Shown piece after piece: positions 693-7,695 of a DNA stretch of 12,782 nucleotides (position 1 is the first letter of the stretch; the number at the start of each line of letters is the position of its first letter). The stretch lies in IMG/VR virus record IMGVR_UViG_3300020721_000006; one strand, 5' to 3'. Below the pieces are notes generated by a model that made no database searches, was not told the origin of the DNA, and saw only the letters and a list, made by a program, of their open reading frames with translations. Source of the stretch: a virus. Lineage: Duplodnaviria > Heunggongvirae > Uroviricota > Caudoviricetes. A program made the position numbers and the translations under genes.

Positions 693-901
693 ATATACTA
701 GAAATACCATTCTATACAGAATTGGATAAGAAGTTAGAAGAAATGTGGCGTCAAACTGAAGGCACTCCAGATGAATGGATTGATTTTATAAAAGAATTAG
801 ATAAAAATATAATAGGTGTAGAAGATAGAGCACAGAAAATTACTACTATAACATTTAGTAAACCAGAACATATAACTTGGTTCTTATTGAGGTGGTCATG
901 A
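689..901 (+). CDS. A4, 70 aa WFxLRWS-tail protein (paralogue of A14)
   Basis: ATGA-coupled; IPFYTELDKKLEE, ends TWFLLRWS. Confidence 0.85.
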   Translation: MNILEIPFYTELDKKLEEMWRQTEGTPDEWIDFIKELDKNIIGVEDRAQKITTITFSKPEHITWFLLRWS

Positions 902-1149
902 TTGACAAAATTATATTAAAATGTTCTGGGGCACACCGTGATCCACGCAAGGGTGTAGATTATTATATAGTTTCTAGGAGTAATCATTTTTATTGGATGT
1001 ATGATGAACAGCACACCTGGTGTGTAGAAACATTTGGTGAGCGAGGTGATTTTTCATCTAGTGATATATGTAGATGGTATCATAATGGTTCTGTTTTTTA
1101 TTTTTTAAATGAAGAAGATTGTAATTGGTTTATATTGAGGTGGTCATGA
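898..1149 (+). CDS. A5, 83 aa WFxLRWS-tail protein (WCxxxFG subfamily)
   Basis: ATGA-coupled; WCVETFG, ends NWFILRWS. Confidence 0.85.
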   Translation: MIDKIILKCSGAHRDPRKGVDYYIVSRSNHFYWMYDEQHTWCVETFGERGDFSSSDICRWYHNGSVFYFLNEEDCNWFILRWS

Positions 1150-1358
1150 TTGTATCGTGGAGTGATTTACCGTTATCTGTGCAAATGCATTTAGATGATA
1201 TCTCTGGATATACTAACACTAGTATTTTAACAAAAGAATGGATTAGTAATTTAAATGTGTGTTTGGAACCATTCACGGCAACATTTGATTTTGATGATGA
1301 TATTATTTACTTTGACAGTGAAGAATGTTATACTTGGTTTATATTGAGGTGGGCATGA
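1146..1358 (+). CDS. A6, 70 aa WFxLRW-tail protein (paralogue of A22)
   Basis: ATGA-coupled; WSDLP...LEPF, ends TWFILRWA. Confidence 0.85.
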   Translation: MIVSWSDLPLSVQMHLDDISGYTNTSILTKEWISNLNVCLEPFTATFDFDDDIIYFDSEECYTWFILRWA

Positions 1359-1540
1359 AAAGAATAAAGTTTGATACATATGATTTCCCAAAATTCATTG
1401 ATGCAACGGATGATATTATTGGGTGGAATGAATCTTTTATTTCACAAGGGTATAAGACTTATCAAAATGATTATAATAGTTATCCCAGACACAGTTTGAG
1501 TGAAGAAGAATATACTTGGTTTTTATTGAGGTGGTTATGA
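1355..1540 (+). CDS. A7, 61 aa WFxLRW-tail protein (D[FY]PKF/GYK subfamily)
   Basis: ATGA-coupled; ends SEEEYTWFLLRWL. Confidence 0.85.
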   Translation: MKRIKFDTYDFPKFIDATDDIIGWNESFISQGYKTYQNDYNSYPRHSLSEEEYTWFLLRWL

Positions 1541-2154: not shown

Positions 2155-2336
2155 AGTATGTTAAATTTCAGTTATGGGATTATCCCAAGTTTGCAAAATG
2201 GGGATGTTCTACCAATGATGCTATTACTTGGCCATCTGTTTTTAAGGTAGCAGGGTATAAAACTGCTACATTGGAGTCTGGGTATATAACAATGCGTGAA
2301 GATGAATATACTTGGTTTGTATTGAAATGGTCATGA
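2151..2336 (+). CDS. A11, 61 aa WFxLKWS-tail protein (D[FY]PKF/GYK subfamily)
   Basis: ATGA-coupled; ends EDEYTWFVLKWS. Confidence 0.85.
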   Translation: MKYVKFQLWDYPKFAKWGCSTNDAITWPSVFKVAGYKTATLESGYITMREDEYTWFVLKWS

Positions 2337-2577
2337 AAAAAGTGGATACATTGAGGTATCAGATGGATTTTGTTATTATGCGTGGGTAAATACTGAAATT
2401 TTAGAAGAATCTACCAAATGGGCAACTGAACATTTTGGTAACCCATTACGTCAAGGTAATTATGGTGAACATTACTTGAAAATAGATACAGGTAATTTTC
2501 GATGGAAGTTATTGACGTGTACTTTCTTTTTTAAAACAGAAGCAGATAAAACTTGGTTTATGTTGAGGTGGGCATAA
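2333..2577 (+). pseudogene. A12, array A gene missed by the ORF track, frameshifted in an A6 run just after ATG
   Basis: ATG 2333 frame stops at 2389; one extra A gives an 81-aa MKKSGYIEVSDGF...KWATEHFG...ADKTWFMLRWA* ending TAA 2577. Confidence 0.75.
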
Positions 2578-3020: not shown

Positions 3021-3229
3021 GTGAGATAGACATGACATATAGCGGGTTGGTATACCATACAAAATTATTGTCAATACCTTTTTTAAAACTGTTAGAAATT
3101 ATCGAATGGTGTGATAAACAATTTGGATTTCATAATTGGGAGTGGGTGAGTGATGATCAATATGGTTATTGTACATTTTATTTTAGCCACGAAGAACATA
3201 TAACTTGGTTTTTAATGAGGTGGTCATGA
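3017..3229 (+). CDS. A15, 70 aa array A protein (paralogue of A10)
   Basis: ATGA-coupled; IIEWCDKQFGFHNW...GYCTFYF. Confidence 0.85.
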   Translation: MSEIDMTYSGLVYHTKLLSIPFLKLLEIIEWCDKQFGFHNWEWVSDDQYGYCTFYFSHEEHITWFLMRWS

Positions 3230-3459
3230 GTTATGAAGTAATAATAGATTGGAGTTATGATAAAGAACGCATTAAATGGAGCACTTTTGACAACCATATT
3301 ATAAATCTTTGTGAGGTTTGTGATAATAACTATCTAAAATTATGGGCTAGTGAAATTGAAAAATATGGTGGTAGAGTAATAGAAGAAACTGATCGTATTA
3401 CAAGACTTTATTTTGAAAGTGAAGCACATTATACTTGGTTCTTATTGAGGTGGTCATGA
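3226..3459 (+). CDS. A16, 77 aa WFxLRWS-tail protein
   Basis: ATGA-coupled; ends FESEAHYTWFLLRWS. Confidence 0.85.
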   Translation: MSYEVIIDWSYDKERIKWSTFDNHIINLCEVCDNNYLKLWASEIEKYGGRVIEETDRITRLYFESEAHYTWFLLRWS

Positions 3460-3800
3460 AGAAAATATTATCAATACTTAGAAAAGTAATCCCTACAACT
3501 ATCGCACAAGACATTATAAGTGTTCAACCAATGACTGCACCACTTGGCAGGATTTTTACTGTGTTAGATGGCCGTGTTGGATTTTCAAAGTTTGCATTGG
3601 CCAATAATCAAGATGAATGTTTAAAGTATCCAGGGGAACATTATGCAGTTGATATACGACCAGAAGTTGAGCAATGGTTAGTTGAACAAGGTAATTACAA
3701 TTGGAAATACGCAGAAGAAAATGATGATTTGCACTTTGCATTTACTCGTGTTATAATAACAGCAGAATTGTATACTTGGTTAATAATGAGGTGGTCATGA
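3456..3800 (+). CDS. A17, 114 aa: N-terminal T4 gp23 (major capsid) Gol-like segment fused to an array A domain
   Basis: ILRKVIPTTIAQDIISVQPMTAPLGRIF resembles gp23 MVRRAIPNLIAFDICGVQPMNSPTGQVF (recalled); ends TWLIMRWS. Confidence 0.8.
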   Translation: MKKILSILRKVIPTTIAQDIISVQPMTAPLGRIFTVLDGRVGFSKFALANNQDECLKYPGEHYAVDIRPEVEQWLVEQGNYNWKYAEENDDLHFAFTRVIITAELYTWLIMRWS

Positions 3801-4264
3801 ACTCTATTTGCACAATAGATACGTTAGGTAATAAAGAATGGTTTTTAAATGGCCTTCGACATCGAGAGGATGGCCCTGCAATTGAAAATGTAAATGGCTC
3901 TAAACATTGGTATTTAAATGGCCTTCGACATCGGGCTGATGGACCTTCTTGTGAATGGCCAGATGGTGCTAAACATTGGTTTTTGAATGGCGTGAGACAT
4001 AGACTAGATGGCCCTGCTGTTGAATGGCCAGATGGTGCTAAAGATTGGTATTTACATGGCCGATTACACCGACTAGATGGCCCTGCTCGTGAAAGAGAAA
4101 ATGGTGATAAAGTTTGGTATTTAGATGGCAAATACCACAGACTAGATGGCCCTGCTGTTGAATGGACAAATGGTCATAAAGAATGGTGGTTAAATAACAA
4201 AAAATATACCGAAGAAGAATATATTATGATACAATTTATGAATAGGAAGAACATCTATGCCTGA
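3797..4264 (+). CDS. B1, 155 aa HRxDGPA-repeat protein (5 repeats)
   Basis: Starts at an A-type ATGA junction; 23-aa repeats; ends YTEEEYIMIQFMNRKNIYA. Confidence 0.88.
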   Translation: MNSICTIDTLGNKEWFLNGLRHREDGPAIENVNGSKHWYLNGLRHRADGPSCEWPDGAKHWFLNGVRHRLDGPAVEWPDGAKDWYLHGRLHRLDGPARERENGDKVWYLDGKYHRLDGPAVEWTNGHKEWWLNNKKYTEEEYIMIQFMNRKNIYA

Positions 4265-4520
4265 ACCAATACTAACTGAACTTTCAAATGGTGATAAACA
4301 TTGGTATTTAAATGGAAAACATCATCGAGAAGATGGCCCTGCTGTTGAATTACCAGATGGATATAAATCATGGTATTTAAATGGCCAATTACATAGAACT
4401 GATGGCCCTGCTATTGAATTTCCAACTGGACATAAATCTTGGTATTTAAATGGCAAACATTATACAGAAGAAGAATATGCTCTAATACAATTTATGAATG
4501 GTGTGAATGTATATGCTTAA
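4257..4520 (+). CDS. B2, 87 aa HRxDGPA-repeat protein (2 repeats)
   Basis: MPEP start, YTEEEYALIQFMNG tail. Confidence 0.88.
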   Translation: MPEPILTELSNGDKHWYLNGKHHREDGPAVELPDGYKSWYLNGQLHRTDGPAIEFPTGHKSWYLNGKHYTEEEYALIQFMNGVNVYA

Positions 4521-4884
4521 AGTATGGTCTAATGAATTTGGTCAATATCATCGTCTAGATGGCCCTGCAGTTATGGATGGTGATGGTAATGATTCATGGT
4601 ATTTAAATGACCAATTACATCGAGAAGATGGCCCTGCAGTTATGGATGGTGATGGTAATGATTCATGGTATTTAAATGACCAATTACATCGAGAAGATGG
4701 CCCTGCAGTATTGTATGCTAATGGTTCCAAATTTTGGTATCAGCATGGCCTACGACATCGAGAAGATGGCCCTGCTACTGAATGGGCTAATGGTCGTAAA
4801 AGATGGTTTTTAAATGACAAAGAATATACCGAAGAAGAATATGTTATGATACAATTTATGAATGGAAAGAATATCTATGCCTGA
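4513..4884 (+). CDS. B3, 123 aa HRxDGPA-repeat protein (4 repeats, atypical N-terminus)
   Basis: ATG 4513 gives the standard 8-nt overlap; exact internal 69-bp duplication. Confidence 0.85.
   Translation: MLKVWSNEFGQYHRLDGPAVMDGDGNDSWYLNDQLHREDGPAVMDGDGNDSWYLNDQLHREDGPAVLYANGSKFWYQHGLRHREDGPATEWANGRKRWFLNDKEYTEEEYVMIQFMNGKNIYA
4558..4709 (+). repeat. Exact 69-bp tandem duplication (2.2 copies) within B3
   Basis: 4558-4626 is identical to 4627-4695, and the first 14 nt recur at 4696-4709. Confidence 0.95.
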
Positions 4885-5140
4885 ACCAAAACTAATCGAA
4901 TATGCTAATGGTGATAAACATTGGTGGTTAAATAACCAATTACATCGAGAAGATGGACCAGCTATTGAATATACAGATGGTCATAAAGCATGGTATCTAA
5001 ATGACCTACGACATCGGCTAGATGGCCCAGCTATTGAAACTGCAGATGGACGTAAATATTGGTATTTAAATGGCAAAGAATATACTGAAGAAGAATATGT
5101 TATGATACAATTTATGAATGGAAAGAATATCTATGCCTGA
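4877..5140 (+). CDS. B4, 87 aa HRxDGPA-repeat protein (2 repeats)
   Basis: MPEPKL start, conserved tail. Confidence 0.88.
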   Translation: MPEPKLIEYANGDKHWWLNNQLHREDGPAIEYTDGHKAWYLNDLRHRLDGPAIETADGRKYWYLNGKEYTEEEYVMIQFMNGKNIYA

Positions 5141-5465
5141 ACCAAAACTAACTGAATTTGCAAATGGTACTAAACATTGGTATTTAAATGACAAATTACA
5201 TCGAACTGATGGCCCAGCAGTTGAATGGGCTACTGGTCGTAAAGAATGGTATTTAAATGGAAAATTACATCGAGAAGATGGCCCTGCAGTATTGTATGCT
5301 AATGGTTCCAAATTTTGGTATCTGAATGACGAATTACATCGAGAAGATGGCCCTGCAATTGAACGGCTAAATGGTGATAAAGAATGGTATTTAAATGGCA
5401 AAGAATATACTGAAGAAGTATATGTTATGATACAATTTATGAATAGGAAGAACATCTATGTCTGA
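5133..5465 (+). CDS. B5, 110 aa HRxDGPA-repeat protein (3 repeats)
   Basis: MPEPKL start, conserved tail. Confidence 0.88.
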   Translation: MPEPKLTEFANGTKHWYLNDKLHRTDGPAVEWATGRKEWYLNGKLHREDGPAVLYANGSKFWYLNDELHREDGPAIERLNGDKEWYLNGKEYTEEVYVMIQFMNRKNIYV

Positions 5466-5700
5466 ACCAAAACTAATACAGTGGTTGTTAAATGGAAAAT
5501 ACCACCGAGAAGATGGTCCAGCTATTGAATATCCAGATGGCAGTAAAACATGGTGGTTAAATGGCCGATTACACCGAGAAGATGGTCCTGCTGCTGAATG
5601 GGCAAATGGGTATAAAGAATGGTATTTAAATGACAAACAATATACCGAAGAAGAATATATTATGGTACAATTTATGAATGGGGTGAATATCTATGCCTGA
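5458..5700 (+). CDS. B6, 80 aa HRxDGPA-repeat protein (2 repeats, shortened N-terminus)
   Basis: MSEPKLIQWLLNG lacks the usual EYxNGxK turn. Confidence 0.85.
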   Translation: MSEPKLIQWLLNGKYHREDGPAIEYPDGSKTWWLNGRLHREDGPAAEWANGYKEWYLNDKQYTEEEYIMVQFMNGVNIYA

Positions 5701-5887
5701 ACCAATATTAACTGAATATGCAAATGGTGATAAAAAATGGTCTTTGAATGGCAGATGGCATAGAGAAGATGGTCCAGCTATGGAATATTCAAATGGTACT
5801 AAACAGTGGTTGTTAAATGGAAAATACCACCGAGAAGATGGTCCAGCTATTGAATATCCAGATGGCAGTAAAACATGGTGGTTAAAT
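5478..5887 (+). repeat. Identical 85-bp block shared by B6 (5478-5562) and B7 (5803-5887)
   Basis: Base-by-base comparison. Confidence 0.9.
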
Positions 5888-5956
5888 AACGAACAATATA
5901 CTGAAGAAGTATATGTTATGATACAATTTATGAAAGGTGTGAATATCTATGTCTGA
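5693..5956 (+). CDS. B7, 87 aa HRxDGPA-repeat protein (2 repeats)
   Basis: MPEPIL start, conserved tail. Confidence 0.88.
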   Translation: MPEPILTEYANGDKKWSLNGRWHREDGPAMEYSNGTKQWLLNGKYHREDGPAIEYPDGSKTWWLNNEQYTEEVYVMIQFMKGVNIYV

Positions 5957-6281
5957 ACTAATACTAACTGAATTTGCAAATGGTGAGAAATTTTGGTATT
6001 TAAATGACAAATTACATCGAACTGATGGCCCAGCAGTTGAATGGGCTACTGGTCGTAAAGAATGGTATTTAAATGGAAAATTACATCGAGAAGATGGTCC
6101 AGCATATGAAGGTATATATGGGCGTAAAGTATGGTATTTAAATGGCCTACGACATAGAACAGATGGCCCAGCTGTTGAATACCCAAATGGGTATAAAGAA
6201 TGGTTTTTAAATGACAAAGAATATACCGAAGAAGAATTTGCACTCATACAATTTATGAATGGTAAGAATATCTATGTCTGA
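5949..6281 (+). CDS. B8, 110 aa HRxDGPA-repeat protein (3 repeats)
   Basis: MSELIL start, conserved tail. Confidence 0.88.
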   Translation: MSELILTEFANGEKFWYLNDKLHRTDGPAVEWATGRKEWYLNGKLHREDGPAYEGIYGRKVWYLNGLRHRTDGPAVEYPNGYKEWFLNDKEYTEEEFALIQFMNGKNIYV

Positions 6282-6675
6282 ACCAACACTTATTGAATAT
6301 GCCACTGGTCATAAAGAATGGTTAGTGAATGGAAAATTACACAGACTAGATGGTCCAGCTTGTGAATTTGCAAATGGTGATAGATCGTGGTGGTTGAATG
6401 GCGAACTACATCGACTAGATGGCCCAGCTATTGTATATTCGGATGGTTCTAAAGCCTGGTATTTAAATGGTAATTTGCACAGAGAAGATGGCCCAGCATA
6501 TGAAAGGGATGATGGTCAAAAAGAATGGTGGTTGAATGGCAAATTACATCGAGAAGATGGCCCAGCATATGAAAGGGCTGGTGGTCATAAAGAATGGTAT
6601 TTAAATGGCAAAGAATATACTGAAGAAGAATACGCACTAATACAATTTATGAATGGGAGGAATATCTATGTTTGA
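6274..6675 (+). CDS. B9, 133 aa HRxDGPA-repeat protein (4 repeats)
   Basis: MSEPTL start, conserved tail. Confidence 0.88.
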   Translation: MSEPTLIEYATGHKEWLVNGKLHRLDGPACEFANGDRSWWLNGELHRLDGPAIVYSDGSKAWYLNGNLHREDGPAYERDDGQKEWWLNGKLHREDGPAYERAGGHKEWYLNGKEYTEEEYALIQFMNGRNIYV

Positions 6676-7069
6676 ACCAGAATTATATGTATATTCAAAT
6701 GGTAATAAATTTTGGCGATTAAATGGCCGATTACATCGAGAAGATGGTCCGGCAGTTGAATATGCAAATGGTACTAAACAATGGTTTTTGAATGGAGAAT
6801 TACATAGCCTAGATTGCCCAGCTCGTGAATTTGAAGATGGTTATAAAGATTGGTGGGTAAATGGCAAACGACATCGAGAAAATGGCCCTGCTATTGAAAA
6901 TGCAGGTGGATATAAAGCATGGTATTTAAATGGCAAATTACACCGAGAAGATGGCCCTGCTAGTGAAGATGAAGTTGGTCATAAAGAATGGTATTTAAAT
7001 GGCAAACGGTACACCGAAGAAGAATATGTTATGATACAATTTATGAATGGGAAGAATATCTATGCCTGA
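6668..7069 (+). CDS. B10, 133 aa HRxDGPA-repeat protein (4 repeats)
   Basis: MFEPEL start, conserved tail. Confidence 0.88.
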   Translation: MFEPELYVYSNGNKFWRLNGRLHREDGPAVEYANGTKQWFLNGELHSLDCPAREFEDGYKDWWVNGKRHRENGPAIENAGGYKAWYLNGKLHREDGPASEDEVGHKEWYLNGKRYTEEEYVMIQFMNGKNIYA

Positions 7070-7403
7070 ACCAATACTAACTGAATATGAAGATGTTTCT
7101 AAACGTTGGGTTTTAAACGGCATAATCCATAAAGCATCTGGCCAATCTATTGTATCAGAATTACCAGACGGAACTAAAATATGGTGGTTGGATGGCAAAC
7201 GACATAGAGAAGATGGACCCGCTATTGTATGGGCCAATGGTTCTAAATTTTGGTATTTAAATGACCTTTTAAATAGAGAAGATGGCCCAGCAGTTGAATG
7301 TGCTGATGGTTTTAAACAATGGTGGTTGAATGGCAAAGAATATACCGAAGAAGAATATGTTATGATCCAATTTATGAATGGTAAGAATGTATATGAAGTA
7401 TGA
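7062..7403 (+). CDS. B11, 113 aa HRxDGPA-repeat protein (2 intact plus 1 degenerate repeat)
   Basis: MPEPIL start; tail QFMNGKNVYEV overlaps the A18 start. Confidence 0.85.
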   Translation: MPEPILTEYEDVSKRWVLNGIIHKASGQSIVSELPDGTKIWWLDGKRHREDGPAIVWANGSKFWYLNDLLNREDGPAVECADGFKQWWLNGKEYTEEEYVMIQFMNGKNVYEV

Positions 7404-7695
7404 ACTTATAACAAGAACTCTTAATCCGTTAAGAAACATCTTTTGGTATTGGATACCAGGTACTACAGTATCATGGACATTATCAGGTGAACAGATGTAT
7501 TCACCATTACATTATATTGATTATGTATTCGAAGAAGAAGTAGGGGCATGGCTAACAAATAATGTAGGTAAACAAGGAAGATATTGGGATTGGCGATATA
7601 ACTCTACAGATGAAAATGACCATTATAAAATATCAGTTAAGATTATAAAATCTAGACAACACTGGTGTTCTATGTTATTATTGAGGTGGTCATGA
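7393..7695 (+). CDS. A18, 100 aa array A protein
   Basis: Starts at the B-type junction position; ends MLLLRWS with an A junction. Confidence 0.8.
   Translation: MKYELITRTLNPLRNIFWYWIPGTTVSWTLSGEQMYSPLHYIDYVFEEEVGAWLTNNVGKQGRYWDWRYNSTDENDHYKISVKIIKSRQHWCSMLLLRWS

What the first reader, a model, noticed from the sequence alone, without database searches (positions are those of the whole stretch)
3456..3563. T4 gp23 Gol-peptide-like segment grafted onto an array protein
Seen: A17 begins ILRKVIPTTIAQDIISVQPMTAPLGRIFTV. From memory, T4 gp23 has MVRRAIPNLIAFDICGVQPMNSPTGQVFAL (14/30 identical by my alignment). Established: this gp23 region is the Gol peptide, which binds EF-Tu and activates the e14 Lit protease. 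Inference: a capsid fragment captured as a cassette N-terminus could be a decoy for capsid-sensing defences, an EF-Tu-binding module, or a capsid-docking piece. It also suggests the array carries anti-defence or host-takeover functions and that the genome is T4-like.
Basis: partly seen in the sequence, partly recalled or inferred. Interest (0 to 1): 0.78.

Follow-up and report, generated by a model that had tools for sequence, protein, structure and literature searches.

The report
Capsid "Gol" peptide on small phage protein
A small, probably early gene of an uncultured ~300-kb freshwater phage joins a detached copy of the most conserved stretch of the T4-type capsid protein to one of the phage's many small cassette domains; the design is conserved in about 50 sequence clusters, but its job is untested.

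Summary
ORF 3456-3800 (114 aa) starts with a 34-residue stretch that matches Pfam Gp23 above the curated cut-off. It is not a mis-assembly: the identical gene lies on at least 23 metagenome contigs, one of 284 kb.

It is also not a one-off graft. About 50 clusters of 90-145-aa proteins share the same design: the capsid peptide followed by a small alpha/beta body. Profile comparison shows that only the peptide is capsid-derived. The body belongs to the same domain superfamily as the ~30 neighbouring "WFxLRWS" cassettes.

The peptide is the best conserved part of the family. It is conserved at the protein level, not the DNA level, and is predicted to be disordered on its own. The gene sits in a sigma-70-led run that is depleted of late-promoter boxes, far from head genes in the complete relatives I could check.

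My best reading (about 0.35) is a portable mimic of the capsid stretch that host EF-Tu/GroEL or Lit-type sensors read. A ticket into the head is the main rival. The function is untested.

This scan has found the same phenomenon before on other DNA. I found no published description.

The parts
3447..3453 (+). Shine-Dalgarno GAGGTGG for the gene. It lies inside the last codons (L-R-W-S) of the upstream cassette.
   Evidence: Read directly from the sequence. The same TTGAGGTGGTCATGA junction precedes most cassettes.
3456..3800 (+). The gene: a 114-aa protein. Its ATG overlaps the upstream stop (ATGA, 3456-3459), and its stop overlaps the ATG of the next gene (3797-3800).
   Evidence: ORF list. 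Identical on 23 contigs. A 96% allele lies on 10 contigs.
3462..3563 (+). Capsid-derived peptide, residues 3-36. It is homologous to T4 gp23 95-127 (end of the N-arm plus the first ordered hairpin, including the Gol region).
   Evidence: Pfam Gp23 32.9 bits. PDB alignment. hhalign 98.1%. AF2 pLDDT about 48-50, so no fold of its own is predicted. It is the most conserved part of the family: 49% mean pairwise identity in the core 14-33.
3564..3659 (+). Variable linker and first strands of the body (residues 37-68).
   Evidence: Least conserved part of the family, 17% mean pairwise identity over residues 37-60. AF2 strands at 34-37, 40-43, 46-48 and 62-67.
3660..3797 (+). Array-type alpha/beta domain core (residues 69-114), with invariant W74 and W83 and a C-terminal helix ending in ...LYTWLIMRWS.
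   Evidence: hhalign against a profile of 30 cassettes from this window: probability 90%, E 1.5e-6, 43 columns. AF2 pLDDT 85-95. No match to a solved or predicted viral fold of known function.

Best explanation
What it is (about 0.95 sure): a 114-aa accessory protein made of two parts. The first is an N-terminal peptide of about 34 residues, disordered on its own, descended from the most conserved stretch of T4-type major capsid proteins (T4 gp23 95-127, which contains the Gol region). The second is a small alpha/beta domain of the same superfamily as the ~30 'WFxLRWS' cassettes around it. It is one member of a conserved, unannotated family found in large uncultured phages. How it most likely works (inferred, about 0.35): the peptide is a portable docking motif. 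In T4, this stretch of the unassembled capsid protein is read by host machinery: it binds EF-Tu domains II-III, this binding lets the Lit protease cleave EF-Tu, and the gp23 N-terminus carries fusion proteins to GroEL. I propose that the small protein, made from a sigma-70-led and therefore probably early transcript, presents the same peptide. It would then occupy or re-target that partner (EF-Tu and/or the chaperonin, or a sensor that reads the capsid motif) before the capsid protein itself is made, and the cassette domain would supply a second activity or block. Shown here: homology, architecture, family-wide selection on the peptide, and position in a non-late, non-structural array. Inferred: early expression, the partner, and the direction of the effect.
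For: Homology of the peptide to gp23. The body is an array-type domain and not capsid-derived. The family holds 66 hits at E<=1e-3 among 1.84 billion representatives, most 90-145 aa and aligned end to end. In all, 43 of 51 aligned members hit Pfam Gp23. The peptide core is the best conserved part (49% pairwise identity, against 35% for the body and 17% for the linker; VQPM 91-100%). Identical residues are mostly written with different codons (for example 9 of 13 against P0024, and 8-10 of 12 against capsid genes), so selection acts on the peptide and there was no recent DNA copying. Members that lost the first half keep the core I-A-x-D-I-V-G-V-Q-P-M-T-x-P-x-G-x-I-F. This core maps to about T4 106-124, the part that is already ordered in the unexpanded prohead shell (first modelled residue L106), not the flexible arm 66-105 thought to contact the scaffold (PMC9546572). 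AF2 gives the peptide no fold of its own, while the body is confident. That is what I would expect of a motif that folds on a partner. Non-late setting: no TATAAATA in 12.8 kb, and ATAAATA occurs once against 11.2 +/- 3.4 expected. On the 284-kb contig with the identical gene, the array is led by a terminator followed by TTGACA-17-TG-TAAGAT, and two 12/12 sigma-70 consensus promoters lie further down the array. In complete relatives, look-alike small genes lie 68-185 kb from the capsid gene. Published portability of this stretch: a 29-residue Gol peptide binds EF-Tu (PMC3014915), and the gp23 N-terminus targets fusion proteins to GroEL (PMC3012670).
Against: No binding partner was shown by any tool here. 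The host is unknown, and Gol/EF-Tu/Lit and GroEL targeting have been shown only for T4 in E. coli. A17 is only 14/30 identical to T4 in this stretch, and I could not read which Gol residues matter because the primary papers are not held. In T4 a free Gol peptide switches Lit on, so a simple copy would harm the phage unless the body blocks the protease. In one complete genome the small protein's peptide is only about 62% identical to that phage's own capsid motif, while the capsid proteins of that clade are about 95% alike. The copy therefore does not track the capsid protein closely. Two of five complete relatives lack any detectable copy, so the gene is dispensable. Early expression is inferred from promoter-like sequences only. 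A later check of a similar finding elsewhere in this scan priced the mimicry reading at only 13/100 (unverified by me).
Confidence: 0.35

Rival explanations
1. Ticket into, or dock onto, the head. The capsid-like N-terminus lets the small protein bind the scaffold, the procapsid interior or neighbouring capsomers as the capsid protein's own N-terminal region does. The cassette domain would then be packaged and injected, or would decorate the capsid.
For: In T4 the gp23 N-terminal region up to residue 105 lies inside the unexpanded shell, probably contacts the scaffold, and later forms the N-arm/N-fist that ties capsomers together (PMC9546572). Some family members extend the capsid homology upstream by about 27 profile positions (P0014, P0028 against PHROG 138 positions 35-103). 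One complete 385-kb genome has a free-standing copy of the whole capsid N-terminus, propeptide included (L115).
Against: A17 has no propeptide and starts directly at the motif. Its first glutamate is residue 54, so there is no L/I-x-E prohead-protease site near the tag. The minimal part kept across the family maps to the T4 hairpin at 106-124 (the first residues ordered in the shell), not the scaffold-facing arm. There are no late-promoter boxes in the array, and the gene is never next to head genes.
Confidence: 0.2
2. Assembly modulator or poison subunit. The peptide binds unassembled capsid protein, either the phage's own (to hold it back until the scaffold is ready) or that of a co-infecting T4-type phage (exclusion).
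For: The peptide is the stretch most conserved across T4-type capsid proteins, so one copy could address many phages (PMC3014915). The gene lies among fast-shuffling accessory cassettes.
Against: In the folded capsid protein, by my reading of the T4 structure paper, this hairpin is part of the subunit's own ordered core (L106 is the first modelled residue). That leaves no obvious empty site for a second copy. No capsid-binding evidence was obtained, and an early protein would have to persist until late.
Confidence: 0.1
3. Relic or generic N-terminal extension. The peptide was captured once by illegitimate recombination and is now only a spacer, an oligomerisation strand or a folding aid for the cassette domain, with no link to what it does in the capsid protein.
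For: The body occurs without the peptide in seven aligned relatives (P0004, P0007, P0010, P0012, P0032, P0036, P0051). The gene is missing in some complete relatives. The last strand of the motif (I-F-T-V) is modelled as part of the body's sheet.
Against: The peptide is more conserved than the body, and exactly at the positions that are conserved in capsid proteins (P..IR.V.P..IA..I.GVQPMT.P.G.I). The same peptide is found on different body subtypes (P0042, P0054, P0057, P0061, L116) and even split by an insert (L117). That argues for repeated retention of the peptide as such.
Confidence: 0.1
4. Artefact: a chance resemblance, or a mis-assembled piece of the real capsid gene.
For: None beyond the shortness of the match (34 residues).
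Against: The score is above Pfam's curated cut-off. The profile-profile E-value is 7.7e-14. The gene is identical on 23 independently assembled contigs. Most shared residues are coded by different codons in A17 and in the capsid genes I compared (8 of 12, 10 of 12 and 5 of 12).
Confidence: 0.01

Closest known systems
Gol region of T4 gp23 (Gol / EF-Tu / Lit exclusion; review PMC3014915)
   Same: It is the homologous stretch: A17 residues 4-36 align to gp23 95-127. In T4 the stretch works as a free 29-residue peptide, so it is portable, and it is the most conserved part of gp23.
   Different: Here the stretch is encoded apart from the capsid gene, at the N-terminus of a small non-structural protein. 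It is 14/30 identical to T4. Binding to EF-Tu and any effect on a Lit-type protease are untested, and the host is unknown.
gp23 N-terminus as a GroEL-targeting tag for fusion proteins (Snyder & Tarkowski 2005, as cited in PMC3012670)
   Same: A piece of the capsid N-terminus joined to an unrelated protein.
   Different: Those were engineered fusions in E. coli, whereas this is a natural, selected fusion. I could not read which gp23 residues were used, so the overlap with A17's 34 residues is unverified.
T4 internal proteins IPI-III and Alt with their capsid targeting sequence (CTS)
   Same: Small phage accessory proteins whose N-terminus carries a head-related address.
   Different: The CTS is a ~10-residue tag unrelated to the capsid protein and is cut off at an L/I-x-E site by the prohead protease (own knowledge). 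A17 has neither such a site nor the CTS-like tag reported for this genome, and it sits in a region without late-promoter boxes.
Major capsid protein family Gp23 (Pfam PF07068, PHROG 138)
   Same: A significant match to 34 profile positions.
   Different: It covers 34 of 376 positions. The remaining 78 residues do not align to capsid proteins and fold as a different small domain, so this is not a capsid protein.
The window's own 'WFxLRWS' cassette family (about 30 copies here, about 30 more in the next window per note e1-1678060)
   Same: The body aligns to the cassette profile (probability 90%). It has the same C-terminal helix and the same SD-in-stop-codon junction.
   Different: A17 is the only cassette in this window with a capsid-derived N-terminus: there is no other VQPM-type motif in six frames, and no PHROG hit for 30 other cassettes. 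Its body belongs to a distinct subtype (..VDV..V..WIEEQP..MWK..).

Membership tests
Gp23 major capsid protein family (PF07068) | Score above the curated gathering cut-off | tested here: met
   32.9 bits against 24.4. 43 of 51 family members also match.
Gp23 major capsid protein family (PF07068) | Full-length HK97-fold capsid domain (about 376 profile positions, protein of 390-520 aa) | tested here: not met
   Only profile positions 7-40 match. hhalign aligns 41 columns and nothing else. The protein is 114 aa, so it is not a capsid protein.
Gol peptide (functional class: EF-Tu-binding activator of Lit) | Sequence homology to the gp23 Gol region | tested here: met
   Residues 4-36 align to gp23 95-127. 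The exact Gol limits (about 94-122) are from my memory, not from a held paper.
Gol peptide (functional class: EF-Tu-binding activator of Lit) | Binds EF-Tu domains II-III | not testable with these tools
   Needs a pull-down or ITC with the cognate or E. coli EF-Tu.
Gol peptide (functional class: EF-Tu-binding activator of Lit) | Makes Lit (peptidase U49) cleave EF-Tu at Gly59-Ile60 | not testable with these tools
   Needs an in vivo or in vitro Lit assay (PMC3014915 describes the assay system).
CTS-tagged packaged proteins (T4 IPI-III, Alt type) | N-terminal targeting tag followed by a prohead-protease site (L/I-x-E) | tested here: not met
   A17 begins M-K-K-I-L-S-I-L-R-K and its first glutamate is residue 54. 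The tag reported for this genome is MKIxEIL(S/N)E (note e1-1678062).
CTS-tagged packaged proteins (T4 IPI-III, Alt type) | Available at the time of head assembly (late promoter) | tested here: inconclusive
   No TATAAATA, and ATAAATA once against 11.2 expected. The array is led by a sigma-70-like promoter. Sequence motifs cannot settle expression timing.
'WFxLRWS' array-cassette domain of this phage | Profile-level homology of the body, including the W...W...helix-LRW(S) pattern | tested here: met
   hhalign probability 90%, E 1.5e-6, 43 columns.
'WFxLRWS' array-cassette domain of this phage | Translationally coupled junction (SD inside the last codons, ATGA overlap) at both ends | tested here: met
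   GAGGTGG at 3447-3453 with ATGA at 3456-3459, and the same at 3788-3800.

The most novel reading that the evidence does not exclude
The family is a new kind of counter-defence: a 'pattern mimic'. The early protein displays the one capsid peptide that host sensors of the Lit type read, through EF-Tu. Its cassette domain makes the complex unproductive, so the sensor or EF-Tu site is blocked before the real capsid protein appears. The many different carrier domains seen on this peptide would then be an arms-race repertoire.
Probability: 0.12. Interest if true: 0.85.

Novelty: new variant of a known kind. Interest (0 to 1): 0.58.

Why it matters
The Gol stretch is the most conserved part of T4-type capsid proteins. 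Why that is so has been open since its EF-Tu binding, Lit activation and GroEL targeting were described. One possibility is the capsid fold; another is a conserved dialogue with the host's translation and folding machinery. Natural proteins that keep this stretch under selection while lacking the whole capsid fold are independent evolutionary evidence that the stretch acts as a portable module. They also offer small, easily expressed reagents for finding its partner. If the partner is a defence sensor or EF-Tu, this would be a widespread, unannotated class of host-takeover or counter-defence proteins in huge phages. There is also a practical point: automatic pipelines label these 100-aa proteins 'Gp23 / major capsid protein' (precomputed Pfam tags), which is wrong.

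Tried and rejected
1. This phage's own capsid gene could not be reached.
- No genome is held for the window.
- The ENA, JGI and NCBI contigs behind my loci are not searchable.
- The exact gene is not in IMG/VR.
- In JGI metagenome contigs it lies only on a 3.4-kb piece.
- A word-based search for longer proteins sharing the N-terminus found nothing.
- The direct comparison 'A17 peptide against own capsid motif' was therefore replaced by three pairs in complete IMG/VR genomes. Those genomes are not close relatives of this phage, since none has a homologue of the window's deoxynucleotidase.

2. Co-folding of A17 (with its family alignment) with E. coli EF-Tu returned 'no answer'; the controls were not run. 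This is neither support nor evidence against.

3. The AlphaFold model of a 390-aa capsid protein of the 121Q-like freshwater clade failed (mean pLDDT 34). The ordered state of the peptide inside a capsid protein therefore rests on the T4 cryo-EM paper, not on my model.

4. Fold searches of the A17 model found no informative match: Foldseek PDB had no hit at E<=0.001; BFVD's best hits were uncharacterised phage proteins; VIA-align wide gave a best Z of 3.5.

5. NCBIfam and PADLOC gave no hits for A17 or two relatives.

6. A weak echo between the body (V-A-I-N-V-D-R-E-V-A-Q-W-I-E in P0028) and the T4 gp23 region I-M-L-E-I-N-R-E-V-V-D-W-I-N scored -1.4 bits. The profile comparison does not support it, so I rejected it as chance.

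7. The primary Gol papers (Georgiou 1998, Bingham 2000) are not held, so I could not map the 13 critical Gol residues onto the family.

8. A search of cultured phages found only capsid genes and no small family member (0 of 97 records cover 80% of the query).

9. A literature search for capsid-fragment decoys or mimics returned only general reviews.

Full report
THE OBSERVATION. The window is one long run of small plus-strand genes. Most of them end in W-F-x-L-R-W-S, and their last codons (TTGAGGTGGTCATGA) carry the Shine-Dalgarno and the overlapping start of the next gene. ORF 3456-3800 (114 aa) is one of these cassettes.

Several searches confirm the capsid match:
- Pfam Gp23 (PF07068) matches residues 3-36 at 32.9 bits, above the curated 24.4-bit cut-off, to profile positions 7-40 of 376.
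- PHROG 138 'major head protein' matches the same residues.
- phmmer against PDB chains aligns residues 4-36 to T4 gp23 95-127.
- tblastn against 50,697 cultured-phage records hits only capsid genes. The best hits are the 121Q/PBECO4/Rak2-type jumbo phages, at 60% over 35 residues.

NOT AN ARTEFACT, NOT A ONE-OFF. The exact protein is encoded on 23 contigs read from independent assemblies. These include a 284,302-bp ENA contig and an 81-kb JGI contig. A 96% allele lies on 10 further contigs. Earlier notes of this scan describe the genome as a ~300-kb phage.

A full HMMER scan of 1.84 billion representatives gave 66 hits at E<=1e-3. Most are 90-145-aa proteins aligned from residue ~4 to 114, so they share both the capsid peptide and the body. 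I aligned 51 of them (A1), and 43 hit Pfam Gp23 on their own. None carries a name in any source.

ARCHITECTURE. Two profile-profile comparisons separate the parts.
- Against capsid proteins, the family aligns over 41 columns only (family columns 5-45 to capsid residues 57-97; probability 98.1%, E 7.7e-14).
- Against a profile of 30 other cassettes of this window, the body aligns (columns 72-118; probability 90%, E 1.5e-6).

AlphaFold2 with the family alignment models residues 34-114 confidently (pLDDT 85-95, a small alpha/beta domain). It gives residues 1-33 no fold (pLDDT about 48). The body matches no solved fold (best Z 3.5) and matches only uncharacterised phage proteins in BFVD.

The parts combine in several ways:
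- Seven relatives have the body without the peptide.
- Others carry the peptide on a different cassette subtype (P0042, P0054, P0057, P0061).
- In some, capsid homology reaches about 27 positions further upstream (P0014, P0028) or further downstream (P0006).

SELECTION. Within the family, the peptide core (residues 14-33) is the most conserved part. Mean pairwise identity is 49% there, against 35% for the body and 17% for the linker; V-Q-P-M is 91-100% conserved. Residues that are identical between members, or between A17 and capsid genes, are mostly written with different codons. The constraint is therefore on the peptide, and there was no recent DNA transfer from a capsid gene.

Members truncated at the N-terminus keep the core I-A-x-D-I-V-G-V-Q-P-M-T-x-P-x-G-x-I-F.

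The two alleles of A17 differ at 5 nucleotides. All five are non-synonymous, and four fall in codons 5-12. The sample is too small to interpret.

CONTEXT. On the 284-kb contig the array begins right after a terminator hairpin and a TTGACA-17-(TG)TAAGAT promoter. Two perfect 12/12 sigma-70 consensus promoters lie in the only real intergenic gaps of the window. The T4-type late box TATAAATA is absent, and its core ATAAATA occurs once against 11.2 +/- 3.4 expected. I infer that the array is transcribed early by host polymerase. This is inference from motifs only.

The same kind of gene sits inside arrays of ...F-x-L-(R/K)-W-(S/A) cassettes in two other lineages:
- L024 is 47% identical, on contigs up to 338 kb.
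- L025 is in a 71-kb IMG/VR record, next to a ClpX / S21 / deformylase / HSP20 / ClpS / ClpP cluster.

In complete 347-385-kb IMG/VR genomes with a 390-aa 121Q-like capsid protein, I found extra small ORFs with the motif 68-185 kb from the capsid gene:
- one with A17's design (L116, inside an array);
- one free-standing copy of the whole capsid N-terminus (L115);
- one with the motif split by a ~75-residue insert (L117).

Two of the five genomes have no such ORF. In L116 the peptide is about 62% identical to that phage's own capsid motif, by my hand count.

WHAT THE STRETCH DOES IN A CAPSID PROTEIN. In T4, residues 66-105 of cleaved gp23 are flexible in the unexpanded head. They probably face the scaffold and later form the N-arm/N-fist. 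L106 is the first ordered residue (PMC9546572).

The same region is the Gol region. A 29-residue peptide binds EF-Tu domains II-III, inhibits its GTPase and lets the e14 Lit protease cut EF-Tu. It is the most conserved part of gp23, which led to the proposal that all T4-type capsid proteins talk to EF-Tu (PMC3014915). The gp23 N-terminus also drives fusion proteins to GroEL (PMC3012670).

The part the small-protein family never loses corresponds to about T4 106-124. These are the first ordered residues of the shell and, as I recall the limits (about 94-122), also the Gol core. It is not the scaffold-facing arm.

READING. A peptide that keeps the capsid protein's conservation pattern, yet has no capsid fold to pack against and no predicted fold of its own, is most simply a linear motif for a partner that also reads it on the unassembled capsid protein. 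The non-late, non-structural setting points to a host-directed role: EF-Tu, the chaperonin, or a sensor of the motif. I put this at about 0.35.

The rivals are:
- a packaging or docking ticket (0.2), which fits propeptide-bearing relatives such as L115 better than it fits A17;
- an assembly modulator or poison subunit (0.1);
- a relic or generic extension (0.1).

The remainder is 'something else'. Nothing here shows binding.

COMPARISON AND NOVELTY. A17 is not a capsid protein, because the full-domain test fails. Whether it is a Gol peptide in the functional sense is untestable here. It does not fit the CTS class. I found no paper describing such proteins.

This scan has met the same phenomenon repeatedly on other DNA, with other carrier domains (notes listed). 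Those notes are leads, not evidence. One of them was later priced at 13/100 for the mimicry reading, which tempers my confidence.

This instance contributes four things:
- a carrier that is the phage's own expanded cassette domain;
- a profile-level separation of the two parts;
- the minimal retained core;
- within-genome pairs in complete genomes.

Noticed in passing
window 3797-7403 (+): Twelve tandem paralogous genes (80-155 aa) directly follow A17. Each holds 2-5 copies of a ~23-residue W-(Y/F)-L-N-G-x-x-H-R-x-D-G-P-A repeat (MORN/YwqK-like by eye; Pfam gave no hit above E 0.002) and a shared tail ending in ..Y-T-E-E-E-Y-x-M-I-Q-F-M-N-G-K-N-I-Y-A. Gene number and sizes differ between contigs that carry the identical A17 gene (L012, L013, L014). 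Two of those contigs (L013, L014) end at or just after this block.
   Followed up: partly
window 877-1366, 3041-3460, 3435-3841, 7393-7695 compared with L005: Cassette order is shuffled between this phage and the phage carrying the 96% allele. The same cassettes (90-98% DNA identity) appear in a different order, and there the repeat-gene block lies upstream of the A17 gene instead of downstream. Cassettes therefore move as units.
   Followed up: partly
window 2333-2577 (+): This apparent 'gap' is a broken cassette. An ATG at 2333 opens a frame that stops at about 2385. Downstream, another frame still reads ..W-A-T-E-H-F-G-N-P...F-F-F-K-T-E-A-D-K-T-W-F-M-L-R-W-A-stop. It is either a pseudogene or a frameshift.
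   Followed up: no
window 8761-8789 and 11639-11667 (+); 12396-12402 (+): Two perfect 12/12 sigma-70 consensus promoters sit exactly in the intergenic gaps. The late-box core ATAAATA is strongly depleted: one copy against 11.2 expected, and that one lies just after the deoxynucleotidase gene.
   Followed up: partly
window 3468-3491 (codons 5-12 of A17) and codon 94: The two natural alleles differ at 5 nucleotides. All five are amino-acid changing and conservative (L/I, R/K, V/A, I/M, F/I), and four cluster in codons 5-12 of the capsid-like peptide. There are no synonymous differences. This could be a small conversion patch or local selection; the numbers are too small to tell.
   Followed up: no
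L115 (IMG/VR 385-kb genome G002, about 370.1 kb), L117 (G006, about 230.2 kb): These are other designs using the same capsid piece. L115 is a 123-aa free-standing copy of the capsid N-terminus (propeptide start, a different middle, then the motif) with no carrier domain. L117 is a 114-aa protein in which the motif is split by a ~75-residue insert.
   Followed up: partly
L025 647-9956: In a 71-kb phage record the family gene follows a cluster of proteostasis and translation genes: ClpX, ribosomal protein S21, NifU, peptide deformylase, HSP20, ClpS and two ClpP. In L024 a Cpn10-like gene lies 10 kb upstream. This is suggestive for a link to translation or folding, but it may be coincidence.
   Followed up: no
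L012 4802-5872 (upstream of the array on the 284-kb contig): An ART-PolyVal (ADP-ribosyltransferase-like) gene lies just before the array. The contig with the 96% allele has two such genes in tandem inside the array.
   Followed up: no
This hints that the phage belongs near that clade.
   Followed up: no
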